64,000 nucleotides of DNA. It comes from an uncultured delta proteobacterium (GTDB taxonomy: Bacteria; Myxococcota; UBA727; VGSZ01). The stretch is taken from the NCBI GenBank assembly GCA_963775425.1, contig CAVZJB010000009.1:16616-80615 (forward strand), read 5' to 3'. The notes under the pieces were generated by a model that was not told where the DNA came from, did not search any database, and was given only the letters and a program-made list of their open reading frames with translations. The position numbers and the translations under genes were made by a program. Below, one piece after another: positions 52-31,926 of the stretch; the first letter of the stretch is position 1; every line of letters starts with the position of its first letter.

Positions 52-83
52 GCCGACGAACAACAACAAAGAAGGAGGTGTGT

Positions 84-1385: not shown

Positions 1386-1388
1386 CGG

Positions 1389-5265: not shown

Positions 5266-5654
5266 TCCCGGCCGGCCTGCGCATCGTCGTCGCGCTCGCG
5301 CCGATGGACATGCGGCGCTCGATAGACGGCCTTGTCGCCGCCGTCGCCGACCGGCTCCACCAGGACGCCGCAGTCGCGCGCGTGGTCTACGCCTTCGCCA
5401 ACACGCGCAGGGATCGCGCAAAGCTGATCTGGCGCACCGAGCATCAATGGTGCCTGCTGTACACGCGGCTCGACGCCGGCTACCGCGTGACGCTGCCCGT
5501 CGCGCAGGATGGCGTGGCGAGCGTATCGGTCGATGCTCGCCAACTGGCGGCGATCCTCGACGGCGCGAAGAAGCGCGCGACGACGCGCGAGACCGTTCGC
5601 GAGGCGCGCGCGAAGGTGTCGATTTCTTCGCCAAGCTCGTCGACGAGGCGATAG
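5262..5654 (+). CDS. tnpB: IS66 OrfB (TnpB accessory protein)
   Basis: MIPAGLRIVVALAPMDMRRSIDGLVAAV…LIWRTEHQWCLLYTRLDAGY is the conserved IS66 Orf2 family. Confidence 0.8.
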   Translation: MIPAGLRIVVALAPMDMRRSIDGLVAAVADRLHQDAAVARVVYAFANTRRDRAKLIWRTEHQWCLLYTRLDAGYRVTLPVAQDGVASVSVDARQLAAILDGAKKRATTRETVREARAKVSISSPSSSTRR

Positions 5655-5662
5655 ATCATGGC

Positions 5663-11543: not shown

Positions 11544-12509
11544 ATGAGTGACGTTCCCGGCACCGCGGTCGCAGTCTGGCACCCGTCAACCCGACCCGTG
11601 GGCGACCTCGCGCTCGACACGGCTGCTGACTGGCCGTGGCACGCCCAGAGTCTTTGCGAGGCGCGTCGCGCTCGGCTCCACGCCCGCGCCTTCGCGGTCG
11701 TCGTCGCTGCGCGCAGCACGGGTCGCGTGCGGCTTGAGTCGCGGCTCTGCTTCGCCGAGCGCACCGGGCCACCGGGAGCGATCGTCCTGGGTTCGCACCC
11801 CGCTTGTGACGTCACGAACCTGCACGGCACCTGCCTGCGGCACGCGCTCGTTCTGGGGTGGCCCGATGCTCGCATCGACGTCCTCGATCTGCGGACAGGC
11901 GTCGGTATCGGCGTCGATGACGCACGGTGCGCGCGCGTGTTCGGGAGCAAGGCGGTCCGGTTCAGCGTTGGTGACGCGGAAGTCTTCGTCGCCGAGGCCG
12001 CGCCGGGCGAAGAGCTTCGCCTCTCGTGGGGGGAGCTTGAGCGTCGGGTGAATGGCGCTCGCCCGACGTGGGCGCCCCGCGCCCACGTCGCTCGCCAAAG
12101 ATCGCACGAAGCGACGAGCGCGTTGCGGGAGTCCACGGCGACGCGCTACGGGCTCACGATCGCGCTTCGGGAGCAGCAGCGCGCCGTCCGCAGCGACGAG
12201 GGCGGCCGGCGAATCGTCGTCACGTCGACGATCGAGGAGCTCGAGCGCGGGGTTGTGATCGGGCGCTACGACCGCTGCGATGTCCAGGGGCCGCTTGCCG
12301 GGGACAACAACGTCTCGCGGGTCCACGCTGTCGTCGTCCTCAGGGACAACAAGCTCTTCATCGTCGATGCCGCCTCCACAAACGGCACTCAGGTGCGCGG
12401 GGCTGGCCTCCGAGAGGCCGCCGACCTCTTCGGCGCCGAGCGGGCCCATGAGCTCCGGGCCGAGGAGACCATCCACGTCTGCGGTCACCGGGTCGAGATT
12501 GTCGTGTGA
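11544..12509 (+). CDS. Tandem FHA-domain protein (phosphothreonine-binding)
   Basis: C-terminal FHA: VVIGRYDRCDV…VSRVHAVVVLRDNKLFIVDAASTNGTQV; N-terminal FHA-like region; precedes the AddB-like gene. Confidence 0.7.
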   Translation: MSDVPGTAVAVWHPSTRPVGDLALDTAADWPWHAQSLCEARRARLHARAFAVVVAARSTGRVRLESRLCFAERTGPPGAIVLGSHPACDVTNLHGTCLRHALVLGWPDARIDVLDLRTGVGIGVDDARCARVFGSKAVRFSVGDAEVFVAEAAPGEELRLSWGELERRVNGARPTWAPRAHVARQRSHEATSALRESTATRYGLTIALREQQRAVRSDEGGRRIVVTSTIEELERGVVIGRYDRCDVQGPLAGDNNVSRVHAVVVLRDNKLFIVDAASTNGTQVRGAGLREAADLFGAERAHELRAEETIHVCGHRVEIVV

Positions 12510-12775
12510 ACGGAGATGACCATCACCAGTTCGAGGAGGCCTGGGCGGGCGGCGTTTCGCGCCGGGGAACACCCCAACAAGATCGAACTGCTCGCAGAGG
12601 GAGCCCGCACGGGCGTTCAGGCGGCGTTTTTGTGCAACTCCCTCCTAGACCCACGAGATTTCAAGGAGTTACATCGTGACGCACGGACGTTCCCGGGTTG
12701 TCCCCAACAGGCTTTGCGGGCGACCTTCTTCCTGCGGTGTTTGCCGGCACCGCCCGGTGAAGCGGCACAAGATCC

Positions 12776-15364
12776 ATGCACGTCGTCTTTGATCTCGACT
12801 TTGATGAAGGCAGCTGGCCGGGGCCATCCGATCAGGGGGCGACCGTTGGCGAAGCTTGGCTTGGTCCGAACGGCTTGGTGTCCAGGCTCGAGCTCTCGCT
12901 CGGGCTCAACGGGATCTTCCCGACCAAAGCTCAGCGTGTAGCTTGTCTTGTTTCGCGTTTGGGGAAGCCCGGGTTTTGGTCCGGATCGGCGTTGGTCGAT
13001 CCGATCGGCACCGCAGTCCGTCTGCTCGACTGGCGCGACGACCTCTGGAGCCATGGCTGGCGAGGGCAAAAGACGGGCGCCCAACGTCTCGATGCGATCG
13101 CTGAGCTAGCCGGCGATATCAACGGAGGAGCACCGGACCGACTCTCGTCGATCACGAACACGCTCGATCGACGCAGGACGGACGTCACGAAGATCGAGCT
13201 CGGAACCCCTCGGGAACATCTTCCTGCGATCTGGCGAGAAGTCCTGACGAAGCTCGCCGACCGTCGCGTCATGGTCCGCGATGCTGCGTTCCGGCCCGCG
13301 TCATCGACGGGCAACCTTGCAAACGCGCGTCGCGACGGCTTTCAACCGTCCTTCTCCGACCCAAGCCTTCAACTCCTTCGGCCGCCGGGTCCTCTCGCCG
13401 CCGCCGAGCTCGTCGCGGCCTACCTTGCCAGCGTCAACGACGCGTCGACCACGGTGGTCGTCGGTGGCGACCCGATTCTCGACGAGGCCATGCGACGGTT
13501 TGCCCGACCCACGGCGGGCGCCTGCTACCCGGCCCAAGAGAACGCTCTGACGCAGCTCCTCGGCAACGTGTTGGAACTGGCGTGGTCGCCCGTGCACCCC
13601 GATCGGGCCTTCGAGCTTCTTTCACATCCCGATGGACCGATCCCGGCGGTCTGTGCGCGGCCCCTTCGTCGCGCCCTTCAAGAGTGGCCGTCAACGACAG
13701 CGTCGACGTGGATGCAGGGCCTCGAGGACGCATTGGCCGCAATCGACGACCTGAAGCGCCGAGCCGATATCCGCCAACGCATTGAGACCTTCTTCACGCC
13801 GGCGAGCTCGGCGGAGGTGGGCCTCAACCAACTCGAGCCGCGCGTGGTGGCGCTTCAACATTGGCTTCGGGCGCGTGCCGCCACGTCGACGACACCCGAC
13901 GACTACCTGGCTGCCGCAGCGCAATCGACTTCCTTCCTTGAGCTCGTTCGCGCGAGCGGCCTTGCTGTCCTCACCAAGACACAGGCGCGACAGATGGTGG
14001 CGCTCGCATCGCCGTCTAAGGGGACGAGTCGCTTTCCCGCTGAGGCTCATCTCCACTCTGTGGGACAGCCAGGCGGCGTCGCCGCACCGGCTGACAGAAT
14101 TGTCTGGTGGAACTTCACGGAGGTGGCCGGCGCTCGCCTGCCGACCGCGTCTCTCACAAACACAGAACGCGCCAGCCTCAAGAGCATCGGCGTGAGCGTG
14201 CAGACGAGAGGTGATGCAGCGCAACGCGCCGCACATCGCTATAAGCGGCCGCTTTGGCGCGCGAACCGCACGCTCCTCCTCGTGTGCCCCGAGGTTGGGG
14301 TTGACGGGGAGCAGGTCCATCCGCATCCGCTCTGGGATGAAATCACGGCGCGGCTCGTGCGCAGCGACGACCGACGAGCGCTGCTCAGAACCGCTCCGGT
14401 TTTGGAGTCTGAGCTTTCTCAGTCGGCACGCCCGCGAGCAGCGGTGGTCGCCCCGCGACGAGCGTGGTCGGTGCCGGCAGGCACGGTTGGAGCGCGGCCC
14501 AAGGAGTCCCCGTCGAGCATCGGCACGCTTGTGGGGTGTCCCCTCCGTTGGGCGCTCACCTACCACGCGCGGCTGAGCAACGCTCCGGCGGCAGCTGCGA
14601 GAGTCGACGGACGGCTCTACGGCCTCATCGCGCACGAACTCCTTGCAGAGCTAGGGCGCAGCGGATCGTTCTCGTTGGCGAACATCACTGACGTCGCACG
14701 GCAGCTTTTCGATAAACGCGTCGGCGACCTTGCGTCGGCGCTCTTCCTCCCAGGCGCACACCATGAACGAGCGCAACTGCGAGAGGTGATCGCTGCAGCA
14801 GCAACGCGGGTCGGCGCCCTCGTCCAGAAGCACGGATTCACCGTCGTCGAGGTCGAGACGGAGAGAAGCCGCACCATCGCGTCCATTCCTCTTACCGGCA
14901 CGCCTGATCTGGTGCTCCGCGCTCCAGGCGGAACTTCCGTCGTCGTCGACTTCAAGTGGGGTGGGGAGAGCGTCCATCGCGAAGCGCTGAAGAACGGTGC
15001 CGCTCACCAATTGGCCGCGTACGTCGAGCTCGTCGCCGACGGCGGTGGCCCACGACCAGCGGCGGCCTACTACGTGCTCCGTGCGCAGCGCATCATCGCG
15101 GACACGATCGGTTTGTTGCCCGACGCCGAAGAGCTCGCGTTCGTCAGCAGCGCTGATTGCTGGGACGCGACGGTGAAGGCGTACGACGAGGCGATAGCTG
15201 GATTCTCAACCGGCGTCTGCGCGTCTGGGGTTGCAGACGAAGCGCACCAAGACCTCCCCGAACGCGGCGAGATCGTGGATGGGCGGCTGAGCCTGCCCGC
15301 GCCGTGCGGTTTCTGCGATTTCCATCATCTCTGCGGACACGCCCAGCAGCAGGGGCAACGCTGA
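12776..15364 (+). CDS. AddB-like PD-(D/E)xK nuclease with C-terminal Fe-S cysteine cluster (no Walker A seen)
   Basis: …VVVDFKWGGESVHREALKNGAAHQLAAYVEL… (RecB-type nuclease motif) and C-terminal CGFCDFHHLC; 1-nt spacer to the downstream helicase. Confidence 0.65.
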   Translation: MHVVFDLDFDEGSWPGPSDQGATVGEAWLGPNGLVSRLELSLGLNGIFPTKAQRVACLVSRLGKPGFWSGSALVDPIGTAVRLLDWRDDLWSHGWRGQKTGAQRLDAIAELAGDINGGAPDRLSSITNTLDRRRTDVTKIELGTPREHLPAIWREVLTKLADRRVMVRDAAFRPASSTGNLANARRDGFQPSFSDPSLQLLRPPGPLAAAELVAAYLASVNDASTTVVVGGDPILDEAMRRFARPTAGACYPAQENALTQLLGNVLELAWSPVHPDRAFELLSHPDGPIPAVCARPLRRALQEWPSTTASTWMQGLEDALAAIDDLKRRADIRQRIETFFTPASSAEVGLNQLEPRVVALQHWLRARAATSTTPDDYLAAAAQSTSFLELVRASGLAVLTKTQARQMVALASPSKGTSRFPAEAHLHSVGQPGGVAAPADRIVWWNFTEVAGARLPTASLTNTERASLKSIGVSVQTRGDAAQRAAHRYKRPLWRANRTLLLVCPEVGVDGEQVHPHPLWDEITARLVRSDDRRALLRTAPVLESELSQSARPRAAVVAPRRAWSVPAGTVGARPKESPSSIGTLVGCPLRWALTYHARLSNAPAAAARVDGRLYGLIAHELLAELGRSGSFSLANITDVARQLFDKRVGDLASALFLPGAHHERAQLREVIAAAATRVGALVQKHGFTVVEVETERSRTIASIPLTGTPDLVLRAPGGTSVVVDFKWGGESVHREALKNGAAHQLAAYVELVADGGGPRPAAAYYVLRAQRIIADTIGLLPDAEELAFVSSADCWDATVKAYDEAIAGFSTGVCASGVADEAHQDLPERGEIVDGRLSLPAPCGFCDFHHLCGHAQQQGQR

Positions 15365-15365
15365 G

Positions 15366-18300
15366 ATGAAGAACATCCAGATCATCTCGGCGTCGGCCGG
15401 CAGCGGAAAGACGACGAGGCTCGCCCGCGAGCTTGAGAACGCCGTGTCCGTGGGAGGTGTTAGCCCCGATTCGATCCTTGCCACGACGTTCACTCGCAAA
15501 GCTGCATCAGAGCTCTTGGAACGCGGCCGAACGGTGCTGCTTGCTGCCGGCCGCGTCGATGAAGCAGAGCGCTTCGGTGCGGCGCGAATCGGCACGGTCA
15601 ACGCGGTCTGCGGCCGGTTGGTCGCCGACTTTGCCTTTGAGCTCGGCGTGTCACCGGACCTCGAGGTGCTCGACGAGAAGAGAGCTGGCGAGTCGTTCAA
15701 GCGCTGCCTCAGCGACGTCGTCACAAAGCAGGAGCTTGCGCGCCTTACGGAAATCGGAACGCGCTTTTACGAGTTCGATTGGCAGCACGCCGTGCAACGG
15801 CTCGTGGAGCTGGCGCGAACGAATGGGATCGCTGTCGAGGAGGTTCCTGTCTCGAAGGCGAGCTCGACTTCTCGGCTACCAAGCGCTGCTCGGTACAGCG
15901 GAGCCGGACGGCATCGCCATCGACGCAGCCCTTGTCGAGGCGCTTGAGGGCTTCATTGCGGGCGTGGAAGCGAACCAGGTATCCGGCGTCGACGCTACCA
16001 GCGGGACCGCCGAGGCTTTGGCGGAAGCCCGGCGCTCCCTGAACGACATGCGAGCCCTGGGCTGCCAGGAATGGCGCCGATGGGTGAAGCTCGCGAAGCT
16101 GCAGACGCGCAAAAAGTCGGAGCATCTCTTGCCCCCGCTGCACGAGGCTGCGCTGCGGGTGCACTCGCATCCGGCGCTGCATGCAGACGCGCGGGACGCC
16201 ATCGAGATCGTGTTCGACGTCGCTGCGCGAAGTCTGGCTGCGTACAGCGCGTACAAGAACGAGCGACGCGCGATGGACTTCGTTGACCAGGAAGCGCTCG
16301 CTCTTCGCCTTCTGCGATTGCCTCCAGTCGCAGAGCAGTTGCGCGAGGAGATCTCGCTCGTCTTGGTGGATGAGTTTCAGGACACGAGCCCCATTCAGCT
16401 CGCGATCTTTCTCGAGCTCGCCGGCATCGCGAAGAAGAACATCTGGGTCGGCGATCAGAAGCAAGCCATCTACGGATTTCGCGGCACCGATCCCGCCTTG
16501 ATGGATGCCGTCGTCATCGAAATCCTCGGCGACGCCGAGCCCATCACGCTGTCGACGTCTTACCGAAGTCGGCCGGCGCTGGTGAAGCTGACCAGCGAGG
16601 TCTTCTCGAAAGCGTTCTCGCTGCAGGGCCTTCCCGAAAGCCGCGTGCGACTCACGCCGGGAAACCCGCAAGAGGCGGCAGGGCTCGGGCCTATCGTTGA
16701 GAGATGGACGCTGGGGAGCAAGAACCAGGAAGCCGATGCGCGCGCCCTTGCCGGCACCCTGCGATCGTTTCTCGCCGATGACGATGTTCGTATCCGCGAC
16801 CGTGGTTCGAACGCAGCCCGCAAGATCCGCCCGCTCGACACCGCCGTTCTCTGTCGGCGGCGAGCGATGTGCGCGCTGGTCGCTGCGGAGCTCGCAGCCG
16901 CTGGCGTTGCTGCGGTGTTGCCGCGGACCGGCTTGCTGCGTACGCCCGAAGGTCGGCTCCTGCTCGATGGCCTTCGCCTCTGGGCAGATCCTGACGATGC
17001 CCTCGCGGCTGCCGAGGTTGCCCGGTTCGTCTCCCTGGTGGACGACGCTGACGGTTGGCTCCTCACCGCATTGCAGAACCCCTACGGCCAGAAGTTCCGG
17101 GAAGCGGAGCCCGTGGCCACGGTACTCGCTGTTCGCGCGGCAAAGCCCCACCTCGGTCCCCTGTCGGCTACGGACGAGGTCATGACTGCGCTCGGGATTC
17201 GCGAGCTGTGCCTTCGCTGGGGGAATGCCGCCCAGCGGTTGGGCAACCTGGATGCCTTTCGTGCACACGTCGTCGCGTTTGCCGCGCGTGCGAGCGAAGA
17301 CGGCATCGCGGCCACAGTCTCGAGTCTGGTGAACGACCTCGCCCGGCTCGAAGAGGAGGACGAGGACTCGCAAGCCGTCGTTGGCTCAGCGGACGCCGTC
17401 ACGGTGACGACGTGGCACGCAGCCAAAGGCCTCGAGTGGCCGGTGACTGTTCTTTTTCAGCTCGAGAAGGATCCGATCGTCGCATCTTTGGGTGTCCACG
17501 CCGACGCAACAACAGCGGCGGTCAACTTCACCGATCCGCTGGCCGGCCGACGTGTCCGATTCTGGCCGAACCCCTTCCATCCAAACCAGACCGACACGCC
17601 GTTTCACGAGCGTCTCTCACAGACCGAGGAGCACCTGCGCGCGGAAGCGCGTGAGCAAAGCCAGGAGCTTCGGCTCTTGTACGTCGGGTGGACGCGAGCG
17701 AGAGACCGCGTGGTGCTGGCCGGCCGCGGGAGCCTGACCGCTGGCATCCTCGGGTTTCTTCGCGACGCGAACGGGCCGTTGCTGGTTGCTCCGAAGCCCA
17801 CAGCAGACATTGGACCCGCGAGTGACGTCGTGTGGGCCGGGGAGGCAGTTGCGCTCCGTGAGCGTATGGCCGCCGTCGACTCTGCAGAGACAGCCGAGCT
17901 CGCGCTCGAAGTCGCGTTCGATGCGCCAGCTCCAAGGCTGTACGCGCCTGCTTTTCTCGCGCCGTCATCGATCGCAACCGAAGGCACGAATTCGCCACCC
18001 ATCGTCATCGGTCAGCCAGTGCCGCTCCCGGGCGACCTCGACATGGCGGCGCTGGGAAATGCGCTCCATGGCTTCTTTGCCGCCGACCTGCCCGGCCTTA
18101 CAGCCGAAGGACGCGTCGAGCTCGCTGCGGAGCTGCTGCGCAACTGGCGCGTCGGTGAAGCACTGGACCCCAACAGCGTCGTCACCATGAGCGATCGCTT
18201 GCGGACGTTCGTGAACGGGCGTTGGCCCAATTGCGCTTGGCATCGAGAGTGGTCGGTCGAACGCGTCCTCGATGGCGGCACCCGACTTCGCGGGGCGGCC

Positions 18301-18525
18301 GATCTGGTTCTTGAAACCACAGATGGCTTCGTCGTCATCGACCACAAGAGCTATCCGAACCCGGGCGGAGCTGAAGAGCACGCACGAGCCTTTGCAGGGC
18401 AACTCCACGCTTACGCCGGTGGCATTGAAGCCGCGCGGAAGCGACCCACCCTCGCCACTCTCGTGCACTTCCCCGTCGCCGGTCTCATGGTGCCGGTCGG
18501 CCTCGCGGCCGTGGTGGCTCCATGA
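15366..18525 (+). CDS. AddA-like UvrD/PcrA superfamily-1 helicase with C-terminal RecB-type nuclease; carries an apparent 1-bp frameshift near 15860
   Basis: Walker A ASAGSGKTT, motif III VLVDEFQDTSPIQ, motif IV GDQKQAIYGFRG, C-terminal FVVIDHKSY; two overlapping track ORFs (15366..15947 and 15433..18525) have to be joined; stop overlaps the brxA ATG (ATGA). Confidence 0.65.
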
Positions 18526-19157
18526 GGACCACTCCATCGACGTCGTCCAAGAAGGGGCCGGTCTACAGCGCCGACATCACCAAAGGCGCGTTGATGATCC
18601 CCGAGAGCCGCGTCGTCGCCAACGTCTTGCTGCAGTCGCCGCAGCTCTCGTCCGCAGAGTGGGAGGCGCAGGTTGTGCGGGAGAACATGTTGCAGAAGCG
18701 AAGCCCGGTGACAGCGCGCAGCCGCGCACGCTACCTGCGCGCCCGACTCTCGGTGGGCCCCGCGACGTTGCTTCCGCTGTTGGCGCGGGGCGATACTGAG
18801 CTCGCTGCACAAGCCGCCATGGCGCTTGCCATCAAACACAGCCGCCTCCTCGGCGACTACCTCGACCAGGTCGTGAGGCTTCAGCGGCTTCGCCAGCAAC
18901 CCTCGCTCGTCGCGAAGGATTGGGCCGCCTTCCTCGACAACGCGGAAGGCTACGCGCCCGAAGTGCATGCATGGAGCACCTCCACCCGGCAGAAGCTGGG
19001 GCAGGTTGTACACCAGGCGATGAGCGAGGCGGGCTATCTCGCCGACACGAAGTCCAAGCGCCTGCAACCCGTTCGAGTGCGCGCCGAGATCAGGCGTGTG
19101 CTCGACGATGCGCGAGAGGAATACGTGCTGCGATGTCTGGGGGTTGCGGAAGCATGA
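18522..19157 (+). CDS. brxA: BREX protein BrxA (DUF1819)
   Basis: ~210 aa, position first in the BREX set, conserved SAEWEAQVVRENMLQKRS…RARYLRARL pattern; stop overlaps the brxB ATG. Confidence 0.75.
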   Translation: MRTTPSTSSKKGPVYSADITKGALMIPESRVVANVLLQSPQLSSAEWEAQVVRENMLQKRSPVTARSRARYLRARLSVGPATLLPLLARGDTELAAQAAMALAIKHSRLLGDYLDQVVRLQRLRQQPSLVAKDWAAFLDNAEGYAPEVHAWSTSTRQKLGQVVHQAMSEAGYLADTKSKRLQPVRVRAEIRRVLDDAREEYVLRCLGVAEA

Positions 19158-19735
19158 CGAACGACGACAACTTTCAGGAGCGACTGGACGCGGTGCTGCC
19201 ACGACTCCGTTCCAAGGACTTTCTCGAGTCCACGGGCCTCGGGAACGAGATCGCGTTCTACGTCTTCGACTACCCGCCAGTTCACGAGCTGAAGGTGCGA
19301 GATGAGATCGCTTCTGTTGTGAAGAAGCTCGCCGGAGACAAGCCGCCCATCAAAGTCCGCCACATCAACTTGTTCGATGTCCTCGTCGATCACCTCAAGG
19401 AGCGTGGTTTCCTCGACAAGGTGTTCGAGATGCAACGCACCAAAGGGGACGACGCGGTGCTGTCGCCCCTCAAGGGCCCGCTCGATGCCAAACGCTTTGC
19501 CGACGTCGTCGTGGCGGCAGCGAAGCCGAGCGAAGTCGACCTTGTGCTCGTGTCAGGAGTTGGCGGGGTTTACCCGCTGATCCGCACGCACCAACTCTTG
19601 AACAACCTTCATCCGCTGGTCCCGCACACGCCAATGGTCTTCTTTTATCCCGGCGACTACGACGGCAAGCACTTCCGGCTCTTCGGGAAGCTTCAAAACG
19701 ACAACTACTACCGTGCCTTCAAGCTCGTGAGCTGA
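19154..19735 (+). CDS. brxB: BREX protein BrxB (DUF1788)
   Basis: MTNDDNFQERLDAVLPRLRSKDFLESTGLGNEIAFYVFDYPP…FRLFGKLQNDNYYRAF; position second in the set. Confidence 0.75.
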   Translation: MTNDDNFQERLDAVLPRLRSKDFLESTGLGNEIAFYVFDYPPVHELKVRDEIASVVKKLAGDKPPIKVRHINLFDVLVDHLKERGFLDKVFEMQRTKGDDAVLSPLKGPLDAKRFADVVVAAAKPSEVDLVLVSGVGGVYPLIRTHQLLNNLHPLVPHTPMVFFYPGDYDGKHFRLFGKLQNDNYYRAFKLVS

Positions 19736-19746
19736 GTGGGGAATTC

Positions 19747-22700
19747 GTGAAAATCCAGGCGCTATTTCTGAAACAACTCGACAGACCCATCAACGGCGTC
19801 GTTAAGGCCGAGCAGGTCGCCAACGAAGTCGTCTGGAACGAGCTCGACGAGTACCACGTCACGAAGGAGCTCGACGGTCACCTGCGGAAGTTCCTCGAGG
19901 CGTACACCGCCTCGATCAACTCCCCGACCGACAACATGGGCGTCTGGATTTCGGGCTTCTTCGGATCCGGCAAGTCGCACTTCCTGAAGATCCTCTCGTA
20001 CTTGCTTGCTCGGCGCTCGGCGACGCATCCGCAGTCAGGCATCGCCAGGGATGCTGTCGAGTTCTTCAACACGAAGATCGGGCCGAAGGCTGGCGCCAAA
20101 GGCGATCCGGCGCTCTTCTCCGATGTGCTCACTGCGACATCCAAGCCGACCGACGTGCTCCTCTTCAACATCGATGCGAAGGCTGATGCGAAGTGGGGTC
20201 GCGACGCTGTGCTCCAGGTCTTCGTGCGTGTCTTGAACGAGCGCCAGGGTTTCTCCAGCGACCATCCGCACATCGCCTACATGGAGCGCTACCTGCAGAA
20301 GCAAGGGAAGCTCGACGCTTTCCACGCCGAGTTTCAAAAGCGCGCCGGTAGCGCATGGGTCGCAGAGCGCGATGCCTGGCACTTCCATGAGGACGCGCTG
20401 CGTGGGGCGCTCGCCCTTGCGCTTGGGAAGGACGAAGCGGCGACCAAGGCGTGGTTCGACAAGGCTGAGCAGGACTCGGTTGTCACGGTGGAGAAGTTGG
20501 CGGCGCAGGTGAAGGAGTACCTGGCGACAAAGGGACCGGATCAGCGCGTCGTCTTCTGCGCCGACGAGGTCGGCCAGTTCATCGGCAACGACACACACCT
20601 GATGCTCAACCTGCAGACGGTCGCCGAGCACCTCGGCACCGCGTGCCAGGGGCGCGCCTGGGTCATCGTGACTTCTCAAGAGGACATTGACGCCGTGCTC
20701 GGGCAGTTCCGGGCGGTCAAAGAGAACGACTTCTCGAAGATCCAGGGCCGCTTCAAGACGCGCCTGTCGCTTTCAAGCTCCAACACCGATGAGGTCATCG
20801 GTGCGCGTCTGCTCGAGAAGACAACCGACGCAGTCAAGGAGCTAACGAAGGTCTTCGCGGAGAAGGGCGACATCCTCAAGAACCAGGTGTCGTTCTCATC
20901 GACGAAGAAGAAGTTCCAGAACTACACCGACCCGCAGAGCTTCATCACCGCGTATCCGTTCGCCCCGTACCACTTCGAGCTGGTGCAGAAGATCTTCGAG
21001 TCGATCCGAAAAGCAGGCGCGACCGGCGTGCACCTCGCTCAGGGCGAGCGCTCGATGCTCGACGCCTTCCAATCCGCGGCGCTGGCCATCAAAGACCGTG
21101 AGGTGGGCGCTCTCGTCGCGATCCACCGCTTCTATCCTGCCATCGAGAGCTTCCTCGACACCACGGTCAAGCGGACCATCGACCAGGCCAAAGAAAACCC
21201 GGCGATCAAGGCGTTCCCCGAAGACGTCGAGCTTCTCCGTGCACTGTTTCTCATTCGCTACGTCGACGTGCTCAAGGGAACGGTCGATAACCTCGTCACG
21301 TTGAGTCTCGAGGAAATCGACCAAGACCGGATCGCCCTGAAGAAGAAGATCGAGGCGAGCCTCGAGCGACTTGAGGGCCAGAACCTCATCTCGCGGAGCG
21401 GTGATACGTACAGCTTCCTTACGAGCGAGGAGCAGGATGTCGGCCGCGAGATCAAGAACCAGGAGATTTCCCCAAGCGACGAACAGAGGAAGCTCGCTGA
21501 GCTCATCTACGCGGACGTCCTCAAGGGGCAGGTCAAGCACACGTTCAAGGACAACAAGGTCGACTATAAGCTCACCCGCTACTGCGACGGCCAGCTCACC
21601 GGAAACAAGAAGGACGAAGACCTTGCTGTTTCCGTCGTGACGCCGCTGCACGACACCTACGAAGCGTTCAACCCGGCGCTCTGTGTCACACAGTCGACCG
21701 AGCATGGGGGACAGCTGCTCGTAAAGCTCAGCGACAACCCCCAGTTGCTTCGCGAGTTGAAGCAGTACTTGAAGACCGACAAATACGTCCGCTTCAAGAC
21801 GGACGAGAGCAACCCGGAAACGCTCAAGCGCATTCTTCGCGACCGGGCCGATGAGAACCGCGAGCGTGACGCGCGTCTGCGCGAGATGGTGGAGGTGTTG
21901 CTATCAACCGCGGACTTCTTCGCCGCCGGCAACTCGCTTAAGCCCAAGAGCACCAACGTCGCCGCACAGTTCGCCGAAGGCTTCGACTACCTGGTCCGCA
22001 ACACGTTCAACAAGATGGTGCTGCTCTCGCACCCAAGCAAGGACGCGAGTGCTGCGCAGGCGGAGACGGCGGCTGTTCTCGCAGCAAGCGACACGCACCA
22101 GCAGGCGCTCGGCCTTGGTCTCGAGGCGCCCAACGGCAAGGCGCTTCAAGACCTGCTGCAGTACGTGAAGCTCAGCTCGAGCAACAACCACAAGGTGATC
22201 CTTGAGGACCTGGTCTCGCGTTACGAGCGTCGTCCGTATGGCTGGCCCACGTACGATGTCGTGCTGCTGCTGGCGCGGCTGTTCGTCGCTGGGGAAATCA
22301 CCCTGCTTCTCGATGGGCAGGCGATGGCCCCGGCAGACGCCAAAGACCCGCTCGCCAAGCGCGCAAACTGGAGCAAGGTCACGGTGCGCAAGCGCGCGAC
22401 CACCACCGGCGATGTGCTCAAGAAAGCCCGCGAGCTCGGCAAGAAGCTCTTCGACACCACGGGTCCCGACGGCGAGCAGGAGCTCTCAACGTTCTTGCAC
22501 GAGCGCTTTGCCGACTGGCGATCGGACCTGCAGAAGATCGCGCCACTCTTCGCTGGCGGAAAGTACCCGGGCGAAACAGTCGTCGTTGACGGCCTGCACC
22601 GCATTGAAGCGTTGGTTCACCTGGTTGAGCCCACAGAGTTCCTTGGCACTCTCGTAGCAGACGGTGCTTCGTGGCTCGCCTTCAACGACAAGCGCCAAGA

Positions 22701-23337
22701 CCTTGAGCAGTTCTTCAAGACCCAGCGCCCCACCTGGGATGACCTGCGCCTTGCCGTCGACAGCACCTACAAAGCCAACCTGCACGCGCTTCTCCACCGC
22801 GCTTCGGCGAAGGCGGCCTTCACTTCCATCGGCGAGCTGCTCGCGCTTGCCGAGCCCTACGGGAAGTTGCACACGGCCGCCGCCCTGCTCGCGACCCTGA
22901 AGACGGAGAACGAGGCGCTGCTCGCGGATGTGCGTCCGTCAGCTGTGGCGGCCATCGAGGGCTACGTCGGTCAGCTGAAGGCTGCCATCGAGCAGGCCGA
23001 GAAGACGCGCGGGACAAGCGCCACGGCCGAGCTGCAGAACGGCTGGCTTCATCCGCTGCAAGGTCACCTGAAGACCGCGCAGACCTCCAAAGAGCTGCCC
23101 ACCATCGCCGATGCGCAGCAGCGTGCTGAGGAGGCGCGCAACGACGCCCTGGATGACATCGAGCAGTGGGCGAATCCAAAGGTCCCGAAGCCGCAGCGAC
23201 CAATCCACACCGTGACGGTGTCTTCGCTCGTCAAGACGCCCTACCTCGAGAATGAGAGGGACGTCGACGCGTTTCTGAGCGCCTTGAAGGATGAGCTTCT
23301 CACCATGGTGGCAACGCACCGCATCCGCATCAAGTGA
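19747..23337 (+). CDS. brxC: BREX ATPase BrxC/PglY (1196 aa, P-loop)
   Basis: Walker A GFFGSGKSHFLK, size and position typical of BrxC; intact ORF with GTG start. Confidence 0.85.
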   Translation: MKIQALFLKQLDRPINGVVKAEQVANEVVWNELDEYHVTKELDGHLRKFLEAYTASINSPTDNMGVWISGFFGSGKSHFLKILSYLLARRSATHPQSGIARDAVEFFNTKIGPKAGAKGDPALFSDVLTATSKPTDVLLFNIDAKADAKWGRDAVLQVFVRVLNERQGFSSDHPHIAYMERYLQKQGKLDAFHAEFQKRAGSAWVAERDAWHFHEDALRGALALALGKDEAATKAWFDKAEQDSVVTVEKLAAQVKEYLATKGPDQRVVFCADEVGQFIGNDTHLMLNLQTVAEHLGTACQGRAWVIVTSQEDIDAVLGQFRAVKENDFSKIQGRFKTRLSLSSSNTDEVIGARLLEKTTDAVKELTKVFAEKGDILKNQVSFSSTKKKFQNYTDPQSFITAYPFAPYHFELVQKIFESIRKAGATGVHLAQGERSMLDAFQSAALAIKDREVGALVAIHRFYPAIESFLDTTVKRTIDQAKENPAIKAFPEDVELLRALFLIRYVDVLKGTVDNLVTLSLEEIDQDRIALKKKIEASLERLEGQNLISRSGDTYSFLTSEEQDVGREIKNQEISPSDEQRKLAELIYADVLKGQVKHTFKDNKVDYKLTRYCDGQLTGNKKDEDLAVSVVTPLHDTYEAFNPALCVTQSTEHGGQLLVKLSDNPQLLRELKQYLKTDKYVRFKTDESNPETLKRILRDRADENRERDARLREMVEVLLSTADFFAAGNSLKPKSTNVAAQFAEGFDYLVRNTFNKMVLLSHPSKDASAAQAETAAVLAASDTHQQALGLGLEAPNGKALQDLLQYVKLSSSNNHKVILEDLVSRYERRPYGWPTYDVVLLLARLFVAGEITLLLDGQAMAPADAKDPLAKRANWSKVTVRKRATTTGDVLKKARELGKKLFDTTGPDGEQELSTFLHERFADWRSDLQKIAPLFAGGKYPGETVVVDGLHRIEALVHLVEPTEFLGTLVADGASWLAFNDKRQDLEQFFKTQRPTWDDLRLAVDSTYKANLHALLHRASAKAAFTSIGELLALAEPYGKLHTAAALLATLKTENEALLADVRPSAVAAIEGYVGQLKAAIEQAEKTRGTSATAELQNGWLHPLQGHLKTAQTSKELPTIADAQQRAEEARNDALDDIEQWANPKVPKPQRPIHTVTVSSLVKTPYLENERDVDAFLSALKDELLTMVATHRIRIK

Positions 23338-23449: not shown

Positions 23450-26400
23450 GTGCACGCTGCGCCGACACCACCCTGGAAACTGTCAGGTCGCGGCCGCGAA
23501 TCCGGTCGGGCTACGCTCGGGGGCGGGGGACAGCGTGCGGAGTCCCTGAACAAGGCCAAGCTCAAAGCCTTCGCGCCCAAGGCGCGTCGAGACCTCATCC
23601 GGGCCGTCACCGACCGCGCCCAGAAGCTCGGCATCACGAAGGATGGTGCGTCCGACGTCGTCATCCAAGGCGACTCGGCGATCATCATGGGTCAGCCGTA
23701 CCCACGGAAGACGGGCGAGATGCGCGAGGCGCTCCGCCAGCGCATCGGACAGCAAGGCTTCTCGCAGGTCATCGAGGCGGCTGCATACACGTGGTTCAAT
23801 CGCTTCATGGCGCTGCGCTACATGGAAGTGCACGGCTACCTCGACCACGGCTTCCGCGTGCTGTCGGACCCCGAGTCCACAGACACCGGCGCGCTGCCGC
23901 AGATTTTGGGCGAGGCTGAGAACGTCGAATTGCCTGGGCTCAATCGCGAGCTCGTCGTTGAGCTCAAGCTGGCGGGCAACAAGGACGCGGAGCTGTACCG
24001 GAGGCTGGTGCTCGCGCAGTGCGAGGCGCTGCACGCGGCGATGCCATTCCTTTTTGAGCCCATCGACGACGACACCGAACTGTTGCTGCCCGACAACTTG
24101 TTGCACTCGGATTCGATCGTTCGTGGACTTGTGAACGACATCGACGAGGAGGATTGGCAGGAGGTCGAGGTCGTTGGCTGGCTCTACCAGTTCTACATCG
24201 CGGAGAGGAAAGACGAGGTCATCGGCAGCGTGATCAAGAGCGAGGATATTCCCGCCGCGACGCAGCTCTTCACGCCCAACTGGATCGTCCAGTATCCTCG
24301 TTCAGAACAGCGTGGGTCGGCTTTGGCGGCTGGCGAACCCATCGTCGACTCTGTCGCAACAATGGCCGTACTTCATCGACCTGCGAAGCAGACGCCCGAG
24401 GTGCAGGAGCGACTCGACGCCCTGATTAAGTCGCGCATCGTTCAAGACGGCGAAAGCTTGAACCCAGAATCGATCACCATCCTCGATCCAGCGTGCGGCT
24501 CGGGCCACATACTCGTCGTCGCCTACGACGTCCTCAAGGCCATCTACCTCGAGCGTGGATATCAGCCCCGCGAAATTCCGCGCCTGATCCTCGAGAAGGA
24601 ACCTCTTCGGACTCGACATCGACGACCGCGCCGCGCAACTTTCGTCTTTTGCGCTCTGCATGAAGGGCCGTGCGGATGATCGACAGCTCTTCAGCAAGCC
24701 GCCGATTCTAAATGTCCTGCCGATTGCGGACACCGAAGGGCTACGGCTCGACAACCTGGCAACCGACCTCGTGCCGCTCGGCGTTCCCTTTGCTCACCTG
24801 AGCGCTCTCCTCGAGGTGTTCAAACCCGCAAAGACGCGGGGATCGCTTATTCAGATCCCCGAGGAACTGCGCACCGCGTTGCCGTCGATCGCCGTCACGC
24901 TGGAGGCTGCCGGTGCGGCCATGGCCACCCCCGAGGCCCAACTTCAACGTGCGAAAGTCGCGCTACTTGTTCGGCAAGCAAGCATCCTCTCGATGAAGGT
25001 AGACAACGTCATCGCGAACCCGCCGTACATGAACAGGAAGTACCTGAACAACGATCTCGATGCCTTTCTGAAGACGCAATATACCGCCACGCAAATCGAC
25101 CTGTACGCGGCATTTATCATCCGTTCCACTGTATTTGCAAAGGCGACAGGTTTTGTGTCGATGATTGCAATGGATAGTTGGATGTTCGGGCAGGACTTCA
25201 CGTCGACGCGAGCTTCCGTGAACGAGCGCCTCACCCCAATCACGGTGGCACATCTCGGAGCCAGGGCGTTCGAGGAAGTGCCTGGTGAGGTTGTGCAAAC
25301 CGCGGCGTTCTCGTCATATCGGGGGCCGGTGGGCGACTTCATTGGCACCTACTACCGTCTAACAAAAGCGAGTTCGTCCGAGGAAAAGCGGGAGCTGCTA
25401 CTGGCTCGCTCGAACTGCTATCGATCCCGGCTTACAGACTTTTCTCTCTTTCCGCGATGCGCCATGATCTACTACGCCAGTGAACGCACGAAGGAAGCGT
25501 TTAGAAATGGCATTACGCTCGGTGATTTTGCCGACGTCGCGACTGGACTTCAGACCGGTAACAATCCTCGCTTTATCAAGTACTGGTTCGAGGTGAGCCG
25601 CGAGATGATCCAGCGGGAGGCGAAGTCTTGTGCGCACGCCGAGCAGATCGGCGGACGTTGGTTTCCCTATGTCAAAGGGAGTGAATACCGGAAATGGTAT
25701 GGCAGCCAGCTCTGCATTCTCGACTGGCGCGATGACGGACGAGAAATACGACATCACCCATCAAGTGCGGTGCGCAATCCAGACTTCTATTTTCGTCCAG
25801 GGATTGCATACAACAACATCTCAAAGGTCTTTTGTGCGCGTGCGGTCGATGCCGGGGCAATCTTCGATCAGAAGAATTCTATGATTTTTCCTCGGAACGA
25901 CGAGGACCGAGCCGGGATCCTTGGCTTCTTGCATAGTTCCGTCGTGTCCCCCCTCCTTGAGGTGGTCGCGCAAAAGGACTTCAACCCGGGCGCGCTACGG
26001 GAGATCCCTCTCGACGGATCCCTCCTCTCCTCCAAGACGGTGGCCACGGCGGTGAACCGACTCGTTCAACTCGCACGGCAGAACTGGGATGCGTTCGAGC
26101 AGTCGTGGGACTTTTCTGGTCATCCAATAGCTTCGTTTCCGTCGACGCGTCTATCGGAAAGCTGGGCGGCATGGCGCGACGCCAATGCCAATGACGCGGC
26201 GCACGCGAAGCAGACTGGAGGATGAAGTCGATCGCGCCTGCATCGAAGCCTACGGGCTCCAAGCGGAACTCTCTGCTGACGTCCCCGAGGAGCAGATTAC
26301 GCTGGTTCGCGCCGATCGTGAAAGGACTGCCAACGCCTCATCTCCTACGCAGTCGGATGCATGATGGGGCGCTACTGTCTCGATGAGCTAGGGTTGATCT

Positions 26401-27071
26401 ATGCAAATGCTAGCAACATTGGCTTCCAGCCAACCCGCTACAAGACCTTCCCGGCCGATACCGACGGCATCATTCCCATTACCGATGCACTCTGGTTCGA
26501 CGACGACGCCGCAAAACGGGTTCGCGAGTTCTTGCATGCCATCTGGGGCGCTGAAAACCTCGACGAAAACATGAAGTGGCTCGCCGAGAGTCTCGGCACC
26601 AAAGCCACTGAGCTTCCCGAGGAGACGATCCGTCGGTATTTGAGTGACAAGTTTTTCAAGGACCATCTGCAGACCTACAAAAAGCGTCCGATCTACTGGC
26701 TGTTTTCGAGCGGAAAGGAGAAGGCGTTCGAGTGCCTCGTCTACCTGCACCGCTACAACGAATCGACACTCTCCCGAATGCGCGCCGACTACGTCATCCC
26801 GCTGCAGGGAAAGCTCGCGTCCCGCGCCAAACTTCTTGAGACCGAGGAGAAGCAGGCGACGTCGACGGCCCAGAAGCGCAAGCTCCAGAAGGAGCTCGTG
26901 GACGTCGAGAAGAAGGTTGTCGAGATCCGAAAGTTCGACGAGCTGCTCAAGCATCATGCCGACCAACGCATCACGCTCGACCTCGATGCCGGCGTGAACG
27001 TCAACTACGGCAAGTTCGGCGACCTGCTCGCGATGGTCGACAAGGTCTGCGGCGAGAAGGAAGAGGAGTAG
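23450..27071 (+). pseudogene. pglX: BREX adenine-specific DNA methyltransferase PglX (BrxX), split by at least 5 single-base frameshifts
   Basis: Conserved blocks found in three different frames: FTPNWIVQY|LVQNSVGRLW…PYFIDL|…ILDPACGSGH…LILEK|NLFGLDIDDRAAQLS…NPPYMNRK…|IEAYGLQ…|ISYAVGCMMGRYCLD…RPIYWLFSSGK…DAGVNVNYGKFGD; indels sit at CC/GG runs (e.g. cagtatCctcgtt, gagaaGgaacc). Confidence 0.8.
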
Positions 27072-27075
27072 CGGC

Positions 27076-29794: not shown

Positions 29795-29806
29795 GGTGGA
29801 GCGCAC

Positions 29807-31862: not shown

Positions 31863-31926
31863 CCTGGCACTCAGCGTTGTCACGCGCAGTTCGGGCTCAT
31901 CGCGGCCACTACCTGGGGAGCGCACA

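What the first reader, a model, noticed from the sequence alone, without database searches (positions are those of the whole stretch)
11544..19157. FHA protein + AddB-like nuclease + AddA-like helicase-nuclease lie directly upstream of, and are translationally coupled to, a type-1 BREX operon
The addB-like stop and addA-like ATG are 1 nt apart, and the addA-like stop overlaps the brxA ATG (ccATGAgg). The whole block 12776→34916 is a single plus-strand array: addB-like, addA-like, brxA, brxB, brxC, pglX, pglZ, brxL, brxU-like, CARF. Known BREX accessory helicases (BrxHI/BrxHII) are not AddAB-type. A RecBCD/AddAB-like end-processing machine embedded in a BREX operon, preceded by a tandem-FHA (phospho-Thr binding) protein, suggests either a new BREX-associated effector/licensing module or a dedicated anti-phage nuclease (Hna/Gabija-like logic). 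The AddB-like subunit lacks a Walker A, as in alphaproteobacterial AddB.
Basis: partly seen in the sequence, partly recalled or inferred. Interest (0 to 1): 0.7.

Follow-up and report, generated by a model that had tools for sequence, protein, structure and literature searches.

The report
Mobile AddAB-like nuclease beside BREX
Two genes just upstream of a BREX phage-defence operon encode a compact relative of the AddAB DNA-end-chewing machine; this pair is an unnamed, self-contained cassette that travels on plasmids and defence islands in many bacterial phyla, so it is probably an accessory anti-invader or repair nuclease, not a built-in BREX part.

Summary

Three things were missed. The AddA-like gene is split by a 1-nt insertion near 15864. 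pglX, pglZ and brxL also carry frame breaks. Only one FHA domain is detectable, and the FHA protein is an orphan.

A 99-100% identical pglX segment from another assembly carries different private indels. The breaks in pglX are therefore most likely long-read assembly errors; the others are inferred to be.

The AddB-like/AddA-like pair is a strictly conserved two-gene cassette. It comprises about 1,700 clusters at 50% identity, is spread patchily over many phyla, and sits on 26 plasmids. It fails every AddA/AddB/RecB equivalog model.

Its neighbours vary and are often defence genes: WYL/BrxR regulators, Azaca-like trios, McrBC-like genes, CBASS, SIR2 and E1/ubiquitin-like modules. BREX is adjacent in only 3 of about 64 loci; in two of these the pair lies upstream on the BREX strand.

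Best reading: an autonomous, mobile AddAB-type end-dependent exonuclease carried in defence islands. It is not an obligate BREX component. A defence role is inferred, not shown.

The parts
11544..12509 (+). FHA-domain protein (321 aa). It is a neighbour and probably not part of the module.
   Evidence: One Pfam FHA domain at aa 237-291. No FHA hit in the N-terminal half. No homologue other than itself in the 5.8-billion-protein search. A 266-nt gap separates it from the next gene. No FHA gene is directly adjacent to the pair elsewhere; the only hits are weak and 2.7-4.8 kb upstream in L031 and L023.
12776..15364 (+). AddB-like subunit (862 aa): degenerate helicase-like scaffold without a Walker A, plus a C-terminal PD-(D/E)XK nuclease with a four-cysteine Fe-S 'staple'.
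15366..15863 (+). AddA-like subunit, N-terminal part (Walker A GSGKT, helicase motifs I and Ia). It starts 1 nt after the AddB-like stop.
   Evidence: UvrD-helicase N-terminal domain, E 5e-19. tblastn with intact homologues covers 15372-15830 in this frame.
15864..15864 (+). Approximate site of a 1-nt insertion that splits the AddA-like gene. Probably an assembly error.
   Evidence: Homologues align up to 15830 in frame 0 and from 15874 in frame +1. The gap length fits one extra base. Removing nt 15864 gives a 1052-aa protein colinear with the 1038-1060-aa homologues. Relatives are intact in one frame, so this is not a conserved programmed frameshift.
15865..18525 (+). AddA-like subunit, remainder: SF1A helicase motifs II-VI and a C-terminal RecB-type nuclease. 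Its stop overlaps the brxA ATG.
   Evidence: UvrD-helicase, UvrD_C and PDDEXK_1. Invariant residues are DExQD 335-339, motif III 362-372, motif VI 772-780, and nuclease D979, D992-H-K994, Q1012, Y1016. Best solved relatives are AdnB 2.7e-24, PcrA, UvrD, AddA 3.4e-13 and RecB 5.7e-9.
18522..19157 (+). brxA
   Evidence: Pfam BrxA, E 1e-43. ATGA overlap with the AddA-like stop.
19154..19735 (+). brxB
   Evidence: Pfam BrxB, E 2e-39. ATGA overlap with the brxA stop.
19747..23337 (+). brxC
   Evidence: BrxC domain families PF25796, PF25792 and PF25791. 46% identical to L076 BrxC over its full length.
23450..27071 (+). pglX methyltransferase, with at least 3 frame disruptions as assembled.
   Evidence: MmeI_Mtase and Eco57I hits on separate ORFs. 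tblastn with L076 proteins maps 23771-24478 in one frame and 24594-27032 in another. An extra A at 26214 and a missing base near 26325 relative to L075.
27076..29796 (+). pglZ, with one frame disruption at about 29130-29200.
   Evidence: Pfam PglZ, E 1.5e-54. tblastn with L076 PglZ switches frame at 29132-29202 and runs to 29791.
29807..31862 (+). brxL, with one frame disruption at about 30312-30319.
   Evidence: BrxL_N on ORF 29807-30433; BrxL_ATPase and Lon_C on ORF 30330-31862. tblastn with the intact 682-aa L076 BrxL.
31783..34026 (+). GmrSD-family (BrxU-like) type IV restriction enzyme with a C-terminal DUF5655. The true start is probably downstream of 31862.
   Evidence: GmrSD_N, GmrSD_C and DUF5655. 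PADLOC Orf5, E 9e-195, aligned from aa 58.
34023..34916 (+). CARF-domain protein (Cas_NE0113/Csx1-like).
   Evidence: Pfam Cas_NE0113. PADLOC CARF5, E 1e-19. TIGR02584, 42.7 bits, below its cut-off.

Best explanation
Genes 12776-18525 encode a compact AddAB-type helicase-nuclease. AddA-like supplies one SF1A (UvrD-like) 3'-5' motor and a RecB-type nuclease. AddB-like supplies an inactivated helicase-like scaffold and a second nuclease that carries an Fe-S cluster. The pair belongs to a distinct, unnamed family that moves horizontally as a two-gene cassette, always in the order AddB-like then AddA-like and usually with abutting or overlapping stop and start codons. It is found on conjugative plasmids and in chromosomal defence or mobile islands across many phyla, often next to a WYL/BrxR-type regulator. 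In this window the cassette sits directly upstream of a type 1 BREX operon, inside an island bounded by transposase, ParB and integrase genes.

Inferred mechanism, by analogy with AddAB and RecBCD: the heterodimer loads on free double-stranded DNA ends, unwinds them with ATP and degrades both strands. It would therefore destroy linear invading DNA, or turn a single cut made by a neighbouring system (GmrSD, McrBC-like, type IIG, possibly BREX) into complete degradation. It might also serve as a divergent copy that phage inhibitors of the host RecBCD/AddAB do not recognise.

It is an autonomous accessory module and not an integral BREX component. The FHA gene is an unrelated neighbour. Shown here: architecture, fold, conserved catalytic residues, cassette conservation, mobility and neighbourhoods. 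Inferred: complex formation, end-dependent exonuclease activity and the anti-invader role.
For: Architecture:
- Pfam domains.
- Invariant nuclease and four-cysteine residues in AddB-like.
- Invariant helicase and nuclease motifs in AddA-like across 13 MAG and plasmid members.

Cassette:
- In the 73 loci held (69 distinct, all MAG or metagenome contigs), AddA-like follows AddB-like on the same strand wherever downstream DNA exists.
- Stop and start abut or overlap in the called and annotated loci.

Not housekeeping:
- Far below the AddA/RecB equivalog cut-offs, with no AddB model hit.
- RefSeq names the plasmid copies only 'PD-(D/E)XK nuclease family protein' and 'UvrD-helicase domain-containing protein'.
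- About 1,720 clusters at 50% identity at E<=1e-30.
- 66 loci scattered over Myxococcota, Acidobacteriota, Planctomycetota, Bacteroidota, Spirochaetes, Kiritimatiellia, Binatia and others.
- 26 plasmids, 17 of them conjugative, in Rhizobium, Sinorhizobium, Agrobacterium, Bradyrhizobium, Methylocystis, Variovorax and Bosea.
- An IS481 element is inserted in the AddB-like gene of L061.

Defence context:
- WYL-WCX regulators lie within 7 kb in 9 MAG loci.
- BrxR-like regulators are adjacent in L006 and on the Variovorax, S. mexicanum and S. meliloti plasmids.
- Azaca-like trios in L010, L011, L047 and Methylocystis pMpar-1.
- McrBC x3, REase_MTES_1575 x2, Cas1 and Cas6 among the immediate neighbours.
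- Hhe x2, ZacC x2 and PDC-S37 x2, all at E=0.
- CBASS in L006 and SIR2 in Methylocystis MJC1.
- BREX in the window, L033 and L061.

The window's flanks are mobile-element genes.
Against: - No experiment exists; the defence role rests only on guilt by association.
- One subclade (L012, L020, L036, L046, L054, L059) lies in a conserved, non-defence chromosomal context of flavin monooxygenase, DUF6600, MAPEG, SBP56 and OmpA genes. That looks vertically inherited and fits a repair role.
- Many loci have unremarkable neighbours.
- Per-locus defence counts could not be obtained, because the batch scans return only per-family totals.
- In this window the AddA-like gene is frameshifted as assembled, so activity in this genome is unproven.
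- Two independent loci (window, L033) place the pair upstream of BREX on the same strand. This leaves room for a real functional link with BREX.
Confidence: 0.55

Rival explanations
1. The pair is an accessory recombinational-repair enzyme, not an immune effector. It would be a spare AddAB-type resection machine carried by plasmids and islands. It would repair double-strand breaks of the element or host, including breaks caused by neighbouring restriction-like systems, or support element recombination and replication restart. WYL regulators would switch it on after DNA damage.
For: The architecture is that of a resection enzyme. WYL-family regulators such as DriD sense ssDNA and control damage responses (PMC9186387 and PMC10853764, listed). 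One subclade has a conserved non-defence chromosomal context. Hudaiberdiev et al. 2017 suggested partly redundant repair-like roles for UvrD-Cas4 fusions.
Against: The phyletic pattern is patchy. The pair sits repeatedly beside bona fide defence genes, including BrxR-type regulators typical of defence operons. The plasmid copies occur in Rhizobiales, which from my own knowledge already have chromosomal addAB; this was not tested here.
Confidence: 0.27
2. The pair is a genuine BREX accessory or effector module. It would supply the nuclease or end-processing step that core BREX lacks, co-transcribed and translationally coupled with brxA.
For: There is an ATGA overlap with brxA, and no consensus terminator lies at the junction in the window. 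A second, deeply diverged locus, L033 (33% AddB-like and 26% BrxC identity), has the order pair, 191-aa ORF, BrxA-like, BrxB, BrxC on one strand. L061 has BREX divergently upstream. Three of about 64 loci is far more than random placement would give. My rough estimate of the chance of lying within 10 kb of a BREX locus is below 0.1%.
Against: About 95% of the cassette's loci have no BREX. A close BREX relative, L076, has no such pair. The coupling to brxA is not conserved in L033. The same enrichment is seen for several other defence systems, so it can be explained by defence-island clustering. GC3 of the pair (0.73-0.77) is lower than that of most BREX genes (five of nine BREX gene segments are 0.80-0.88; range 0.66-0.88), which hints at separate histories.
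Confidence: 0.08
3. The pair is simply this organism's housekeeping AddAB, and it happens to lie next to BREX.
For: The domain architecture and fold are AddAB-like. The rest of the genome could not be inspected.
Against: It fails the AddA/AddB/RecB equivalog models by a wide margin. It sits in a 50-kb island of IS66, rve/AAA_22, Mu-like transposase, ParB and integrase genes. Its nearest relatives are only 50-53% identical and scattered. Family members are plasmid-borne. GC3 is atypically low for the region.
Confidence: 0.05
4. The locus is a decaying, non-functional remnant. The frameshifts in the AddA-like gene, pglX, pglZ and brxL are real mutations.
For: Six frame disruptions lie between 15.8 and 30.4 kb, while brxC, the AddB-like gene and the GmrSD gene are intact. 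pglX alone has three.
Against: An independent assembly, L075, is 98-100% identical over window 24.6-26.3 kb. It lacks the window's indels and carries private indels of its own where the window is intact. There are almost no substitutions. The related metagenome BREX locus L076 also has a split pglX and pglZ at 6x coverage. This pattern is typical of long-read assembly error.
Confidence: 0.2

Closest known systems
AddAB helicase-nuclease (Bacillus subtilis AddAB, PDB 3U44/4CEH; also RexAB)
   Same: Two-gene addB-then-addA order. One active SF1A UvrD-like motor plus a RecB-type nuclease in AddA. The second subunit is a degenerate helicase-like scaffold with a C-terminal PD-(D/E)XK nuclease held by a four-cysteine Fe-S cluster. 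AddB is the best structural match.
   Different: There is no sequence-level match of AddB-like to any PDB chain or NCBIfam AddB model. AddA-like scores 97-108 bits against cut-offs of 708-861. AddB-like is much shorter (862 aa against about 1,150 resolved residues in the AddB chains) and has no Walker A. The distribution is patchy and plasmid- or island-borne, not that of a core gene. Chi recognition is unknown.
UvrD-Cas4-like (pfam12705) helicase-nuclease fusions in defence contexts (Hudaiberdiev et al. 2017, PMC5704561)
   Same: A UvrD-type SF1 helicase fused to a Cas4/AddB-type nuclease, found next to restriction-modification genes and WYL/HTH regulators. The authors proposed an ancillary defence role.
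   Different: That description concerns a single fusion protein linked to type III R-M or Dcm/Vsr genes. Here the unit is an obligate pair with an AddB-like second subunit. Whether AddA-like falls inside their monophyletic clade was not tested.
AdnAB (Mycobacterium) and RecBCD
   Same: End-resection helicase-nucleases of the same superfamily. AdnB is the best sequence match of AddA-like in the PDB (2.7e-24). AdnA and RecC are structural matches of AddB-like.
   Different: From my own knowledge, both AdnAB subunits carry a Walker A-containing UvrD-like motor domain; AddB-like has no Walker A. RecBCD needs a RecD motor and a nuclease-less RecC. No recD-like gene accompanies the pair.
Gabija (GajA/GajB) and the BREX accessory helicases BrxHI/BrxHII
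   Same: Defence systems that use a UvrD-like (GajB) or other helicase. The PADLOC GajB models hit the helicase core of AddA-like.
   Different: The hits are generic to the UvrD core (E 1e-21 at best, partial). No OLD/TOPRIM GajA partner is present. BrxHI/BrxHII models do not match either protein.

Membership tests
AddAB (AddA subunit) | SF1A UvrD-like helicase motifs with an intact Walker A, plus a C-terminal RecB-family nuclease motif | tested here: met
   Pfam UvrD-helicase, UvrD_C and PDDEXK_1. Invariant GxGKT, DExQD, motifs III and VI, and D..DxK..Q..Y in 13 members.
AddAB (AddA subunit) | Reaches the curated AddA equivalog score (TIGR02784 or TIGR02785) | tested here: not met
   108.5 bits against 860.75, and 96.9 against 707.65. 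RecB TIGR00609 gives 115 against 696 (C-terminal 887 aa; the N-terminal fragment adds about 40 bits).
AddAB (AddB subunit) | C-terminal PD-(D/E)XK nuclease stapled by a four-cysteine Fe-S cluster (one Cys before the domain, CxxCx5C after it) | tested here: met
   C588, C844, C847 and C853, together with D711, D725 and K727, are invariant in 9 homologues. Actual iron-sulfur binding is inferred from the motif.
AddAB (AddB subunit) | N-terminal inactivated helicase-like fold resembling AddB | tested here: met
AddAB (AddB subunit) | Sequence membership in curated AddB families | tested here: not met
   No NCBIfam hit at E<=0.01. No PDB sequence hit at E<=1 with a 9-sequence profile.
AddAB | Chi-sequence recognition that switches degradation to recombinogenic resection; complementation of DSB-repair defects | not testable with these tools
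   Needs biochemistry and genetics.
AdnAB | Both subunits carry a Walker A-containing UvrD-like motor domain as well as a nuclease (feature recalled from my own knowledge) | tested here: not met
   AddB-like has no Walker A (sequence; no such invariant column).
RecBCD | Three subunits, including a RecD SF1B motor and a nuclease-less RecC | tested here: not met
   No third conserved gene was found in any of about 64 neighbourhoods. AddB-like keeps an intact nuclease site.
Type 1 BREX | brxA, brxB, brxC, pglX, pglZ and brxL in one array | tested here: met
   All six were found by Pfam in canonical order. As assembled, pglX, pglZ and brxL carry frame breaks.
BREX accessory helicases BrxHI/BrxHII | Match to the BrxHI/BrxHII models | tested here: not met
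   The PADLOC scan of both proteins returned only GajB and RTasHel (UvrD-core) hits, plus a marginal Cas4-like nuclease hit.
Gabija | A GajA OLD-family ATPase/TOPRIM nuclease paired with a GajB UvrD helicase | tested here: not met
   No GajA hit was found. The partner is an AddB-like PD-(D/E)XK protein.
Obligate BREX-linked module | Consistent co-occurrence with BREX genes across the family | tested here: not met
   BREX genes were detected near the pair only in the window, L033 and L061, out of about 64 loci with flanks.
UvrD-Cas4 fusion clade of Hudaiberdiev et al. 2017 | Monophyly with the described UvrD-Cas4 fusion helicases | not tested
   The domain architecture of AddA-like is the same. 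No phylogeny against their set was possible.

The most novel reading that the evidence does not exclude
The cassette is a previously unrecognised stand-alone anti-phage or anti-plasmid system: an 'immune AddAB'. It would be licensed by WYL/BrxR-type sensors or by ends that neighbouring systems create. It would degrade invading DNA from its ends while being insensitive to phage inhibitors of the host RecBCD/AddAB. In the BREX-linked loci (window, L033) it would provide the missing DNA-destroying step for BREX. As far as I know, no nuclease effector has been identified for core BREX.
Probability: 0.3. Interest if true: 0.8.

Novelty: new variant of a known kind. Interest (0 to 1): 0.55.

Why it matters
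AddAB and RecBCD are usually treated as core repair enzymes that also happen to restrict phage. This is a separate, mobile lineage of the same machine, with about 1,700 clusters at 50% identity. It behaves like defence-island cargo, is annotated only generically, and matches no named system in PADLOC v2.

If it is an immune effector, it would be a simple two-gene candidate system. It has cultured, tractable hosts on Rhizobium, Sinorhizobium and Methylocystis plasmids. It would also give a way to ask how end-dependent exonucleases are kept off self DNA.

Its repeated placement next to BREX, Azaca-like, McrBC-like and type IIG genes makes synergy directly testable: one system cuts and the other degrades from the cut end. 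The practical lesson for this window is that several apparent pseudogenes are probably assembly indels.

Tried and rejected
- **Exact-sequence look-up of the AddB-like protein and of P0001:** not on record. The source organism could not be named; the cluster look-up gave no accession.
- **Word-indexed homologue search:** it found only 10 relatives and understated the family. The exhaustive HMM search found 1,720 at E<=1e-30.
- **First genome scan with the 9-sequence alignment:** It was repeated with 4 sequences.
- **GC3-based gene caller:** mis-called the AddB-like region, which has weak GC3 bias. I replaced it with six-frame ORF clustering.
- **Tandem FHA:** tested by BLASTP, lenient Pfam and single-sequence AlphaFold. 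None supports it.
- **A conserved third gene** (a small ORF upstream or a ~200-aa ORF downstream): the small neighbours in L006, L074, L077, L079, L080 and L085 are unrelated to each other.
- **Programmed frameshift in the AddA-like gene:** rejected, because homologues are intact in one frame.
- **Housekeeping genes as an internal control for assembly error:** none could be identified; every flank gene that got a family assignment is a mobile-element or accessory gene, and the ORFs beyond about 51.7 kb were not scanned.
- **Literature:** searches for an AddAB-like defence system or BREX accessory found nothing specific. One query was malformed.
- **The single 'phage' hit:** MT835507.1 is an unverified, unannotated faecal scaffold. 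I did not rely on it.
Full report
**1. What is in the sequence**

- The FHA-domain ORF is at 11544-12509 and the AddB-like ORF at 12776-15364.
- An ATG lies one base after the AddB-like stop (cgcTGAgATG).
- The end of the AddA-like reading frame overlaps the brxA start in ATGA at 18522-18525.
- brxA, brxB, brxC, pglX, pglZ and brxL are all recognised by Pfam in the canonical type 1 BREX order. They are followed by a GmrSD-family (BrxU-like) enzyme and a CARF protein.

- The ORF that begins at 15366 ends after 193 codons at 15947. The remaining ~890 residues of the helicase-nuclease are in the +1 frame.
- tblastn with four intact homologues covers 15372-15830 in one frame and 15874 onwards in the next. 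The missing stretch fits one extra base near 15864. Deleting that base gives a 1052-aa protein colinear with the 1038-1060-aa homologues.
- pglX has at least three breaks, pglZ one (about 29130-29200, true end 29796) and brxL one (about 30312-30319).

**2. Are the frameshifts real?**

A 4-kb contig from another ENA assembly (L075) matches window 23534-27500.
- Over 24.6-26.3 kb the two are 98-100% identical, with almost no substitutions. Yet they differ by single-base indels.
- The window has an extra A at 26214 and lacks a base near 26325. This pair of indels, about 110 nt apart, shifts the frame and then restores it.
- L075 is intact at those positions. It carries its own indels where the window's ORF is open, for example an extra C at window 25924 and a missing G near 25188.
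- Private indels in otherwise identical DNA are the signature of long-read assembly error. The 'contig_N' and 'ctg..._6x' record names fit this, and a related BREX locus from another low-coverage assembly (L076) is split in the same way.

I therefore treat the AddA-like frameshift as probably artefactual, about 0.8. Only the reads can settle it. Every flank gene that got a family assignment is a mobile-element or accessory gene, so no housekeeping gene was available as an internal control.

**3. What the two proteins are**

*AddA-like*
- It has the UvrD N- and C-terminal helicase domains and a C-terminal PD-(D/E)XK domain.
- In an alignment of 13 members from metagenomes and plasmids the following are invariant: Walker A (G12, G14, K15, T16), DExQD (335-339), motif III (362-372), motif VI (772-780) and the nuclease residues (D979, D992-H-K994, Q1012, Y1016).
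- Its best solved relatives by sequence are AdnB (2.7e-24), PcrA, UvrD, AddA (3.4e-13) and RecB (5.7e-9).

*AddB-like*
- It has only a PDDEXK_1 hit by sequence. It gives no NCBIfam hit and no PDB hit even with a profile.
- Its nuclease residues and a C...CxxCx5C set are invariant. This is the Fe-S 'staple' arrangement known from AddB, Cas4 and Dna2 (established knowledge).
- It has no Walker A.

The 'AddAB-like' label is therefore justified as architecture and fold: one motor and two nucleases. Family membership in the curated sense fails. AddA-like reaches 97-115 bits against cut-offs of 696-861 for AddA and RecB.

**4. The family and its habits**

- The exhaustive profile search finds 1,720 clusters at 50% identity at E<=1e-30, and at least 150 full-length members at E<1e-189.
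- A scan of one genome per species returned 66 loci, all MAGs. They come from Myxococcota (the most), Acidobacteriota, Planctomycetota, Bacteroidota, Spirochaetes, Kiritimatiellia, Binatia, Thermodesulfobacteriota and others.
- In the 73 loci held, AddA-like follows AddB-like on the same strand wherever downstream DNA is available. Stop and start usually abut or overlap.
- No third gene is conserved.
- Full-length relatives at 26-31% identity also lie on 26 plasmids, 17 of them conjugative. The hosts are Rhizobium, Sinorhizobium, Agrobacterium, Bradyrhizobium, Methylocystis, Variovorax, Bosea and Lysinibacillus.
- RefSeq labels those copies only generically. This means they fail NCBI's AddA/AddB equivalog models.
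- From my own knowledge, Rhizobiales have a chromosomal addAB, so the plasmid copies would be extra. This was not tested here.
- One member is interrupted by an IS481 element (L061).

**5. Neighbourhoods**

The commonest recurrent neighbour is a WYL regulator.
- WYL-WCX regulators lie within 7 kb in 9 MAG loci.
- A BrxR-type WYL regulator lies directly upstream in L006 and on the Variovorax SRS16, S. mexicanum and S. meliloti plasmids. These are 38-58% identical to one another.

Other neighbours:
- Azaca-like DUF6361/PLD/helicase trios in L010, L011, L047 and Methylocystis pMpar-1.
- McrBC x3, REase_MTES_1575 x2, Cas1 and Cas6 among the immediate neighbours.
- Hhe, ZacC and PDC-S37, all at E=0.
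- CBASS in L006.
- SIR2 plus an ATPase in Methylocystis MJC1.
- An N6-methylase with an AAA ATPase and a restriction endonuclease on the Sinorhizobium plasmids.
- An RtcR-like CARF/sigma-54 activator in L001.
- ThiF/multiubiquitin modules in R. etli, Bosea and B. barranii.

One subclade (L012, L020, L036, L046, L054, L059) sits instead in a conserved metabolic context.

BREX is adjacent in three loci.
- The window.
- L033, where the order on one strand is pair, 191-aa ORF, BrxA-like, BrxB, BrxC.
- L061, where BREX is divergent upstream.

This is far above random expectation. It is no more striking than the links to other defence systems, and the ATGA coupling to brxA is unique to the window.

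**6. The FHA gene**

- Only one FHA domain is detectable.
- The protein has no homologue in the large database.
- Elsewhere no FHA gene is directly adjacent to the pair. The only hits are two weak FHA-domain matches, about 2.7 and 4.8 kb upstream in L031 and L023.
- Curiously, the closest relative of the pair (L074, 53% identity) has a Cys-based protein phosphatase (HCIGGLGRTG) ending 4 nt before its AddB-like gene.
- A truncated homologue of that phosphatase lies at window 35331-35588, beyond the CARF gene.

A phospho-signalling link in this sub-branch is possible, but it rests on two loci.

**7. Setting in the window**

The array lies in a mobile island. Its genes are:
- ThiF-JAB and an HTH-M78 protein at 18-2525.
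- IS66 at 5052-7402.
- rve/AAA_22 transposition genes at 8313-10621.
- A Mu-like transposase at 36615-38111.
- ParB at 38878-39903.
- A tyrosine integrase at 48757-50139.

GC3 of the pair (0.73-0.77) is lower than that of most BREX genes (five of nine segments 0.80-0.88; range 0.66-0.88) and of the transposases (0.92-0.94). This suggests separate histories.

**8. Interpretation**

- The best-supported reading is an autonomous, mobile AddAB-type, end-dependent helicase-nuclease that travels as defence-island and plasmid cargo. A BrxR/WYL-type sensor would control it in many loci (inferred from adjacency). Its biochemical activity and anti-invader role are inferred (confidence 0.55).
- The main rival is an accessory repair enzyme (0.27).
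- A BREX-specific effector role is not excluded for the same-strand loci, but it is not the general rule (0.08).
- A housekeeping AddAB is unlikely (0.05).
- I found no paper describing this pair as a defence system.
- I rate it a new variant of a known kind, with interest 0.55.

Noticed in passing
window 23534-27500 vs L075 (ENA ERZ25039495 contig_20113): The two BREX loci are mosaic. The central pglX segment (window about 24.6-26.3 kb) is 98-100% identical, while both flanks are only 77-88% identical. This suggests a recent exchange of the pglX methyltransferase/specificity region between related BREX loci.
   Followed up: partly
window 18-2525; L077 6570-8816; L078 3437-5648; L085 14093-16527: A ThiF(E1)-JAB fusion and a divergent HTH-M78 protein (PD-Lambda-2_B-like, E 3e-32) lie about 10 kb upstream of the pair. 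On three plasmids (R. etli, B. barranii, Bosea) ThiF with multiubiquitin, JAB or DUF6527 modules lie next to the same AddAB-like cassette. This could be a recurrent co-location or just defence-island clustering.
   Followed up: partly
window 35331-35588 (+); L074 579-1196: A truncated protein-phosphatase homologue lies here (36% identity over 81 aa, E 9e-9; the catalytic CX5R part is missing). The intact phosphatase sits 4 nt upstream of the AddB-like gene in the closest relative, L074. Together with the FHA gene this hints at a phospho-signalling link in this sub-branch.
   Followed up: partly
L061 11223-12257 (-): An IS481-family transposase is inserted inside the AddB-like gene of a Myxococcota MAG that also has BREX genes divergently upstream.
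   Followed up: no
L001 8457-9965 (-): An RtcR-like CARF/sigma-54/HTH activator (PADLOC RtcR_PspF2, E 5e-119) is divergently transcribed from the AddAB-like pair, in place of the usual WYL regulator.
   Followed up: no
window 58517-60202: This stretch has very high GC (0.78), strong A-over-T skew and imperfect tandem repeats with periods of 24, 96 and 288 nt (GAGGAGGCGCGC-type, coding for Glu/Ala/Arg-rich repeats). It lies inside a long plus-strand ORF, 57859-61740.
   Followed up: no
window 34023-34916: A CARF-only protein of 297 aa (Cas_NE0113/Csx1-like, no recognisable effector domain) overlaps the stop of the GmrSD gene by 4 nt. No CRISPR-Cas or cyclase gene was seen nearby.
   Followed up: no
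window 38148-39903 (-): The ParB-like ORF (38878-39903) and ORF 38148-39194 overlap by about 316 nt on the same strand, and the coding-phase signal switches near 39.03-39.12 kb. This may be another assembly indel splitting one long ParB-like gene.
   Followed up: no
L076 7729-9897 and 12735-13351: In a related type 1 BREX locus, a PD-(D/E)XK_3 gene and a DUF2281/PIN toxin-antitoxin pair are inserted around pglX. That locus has no AddAB-like pair.
   Followed up: no
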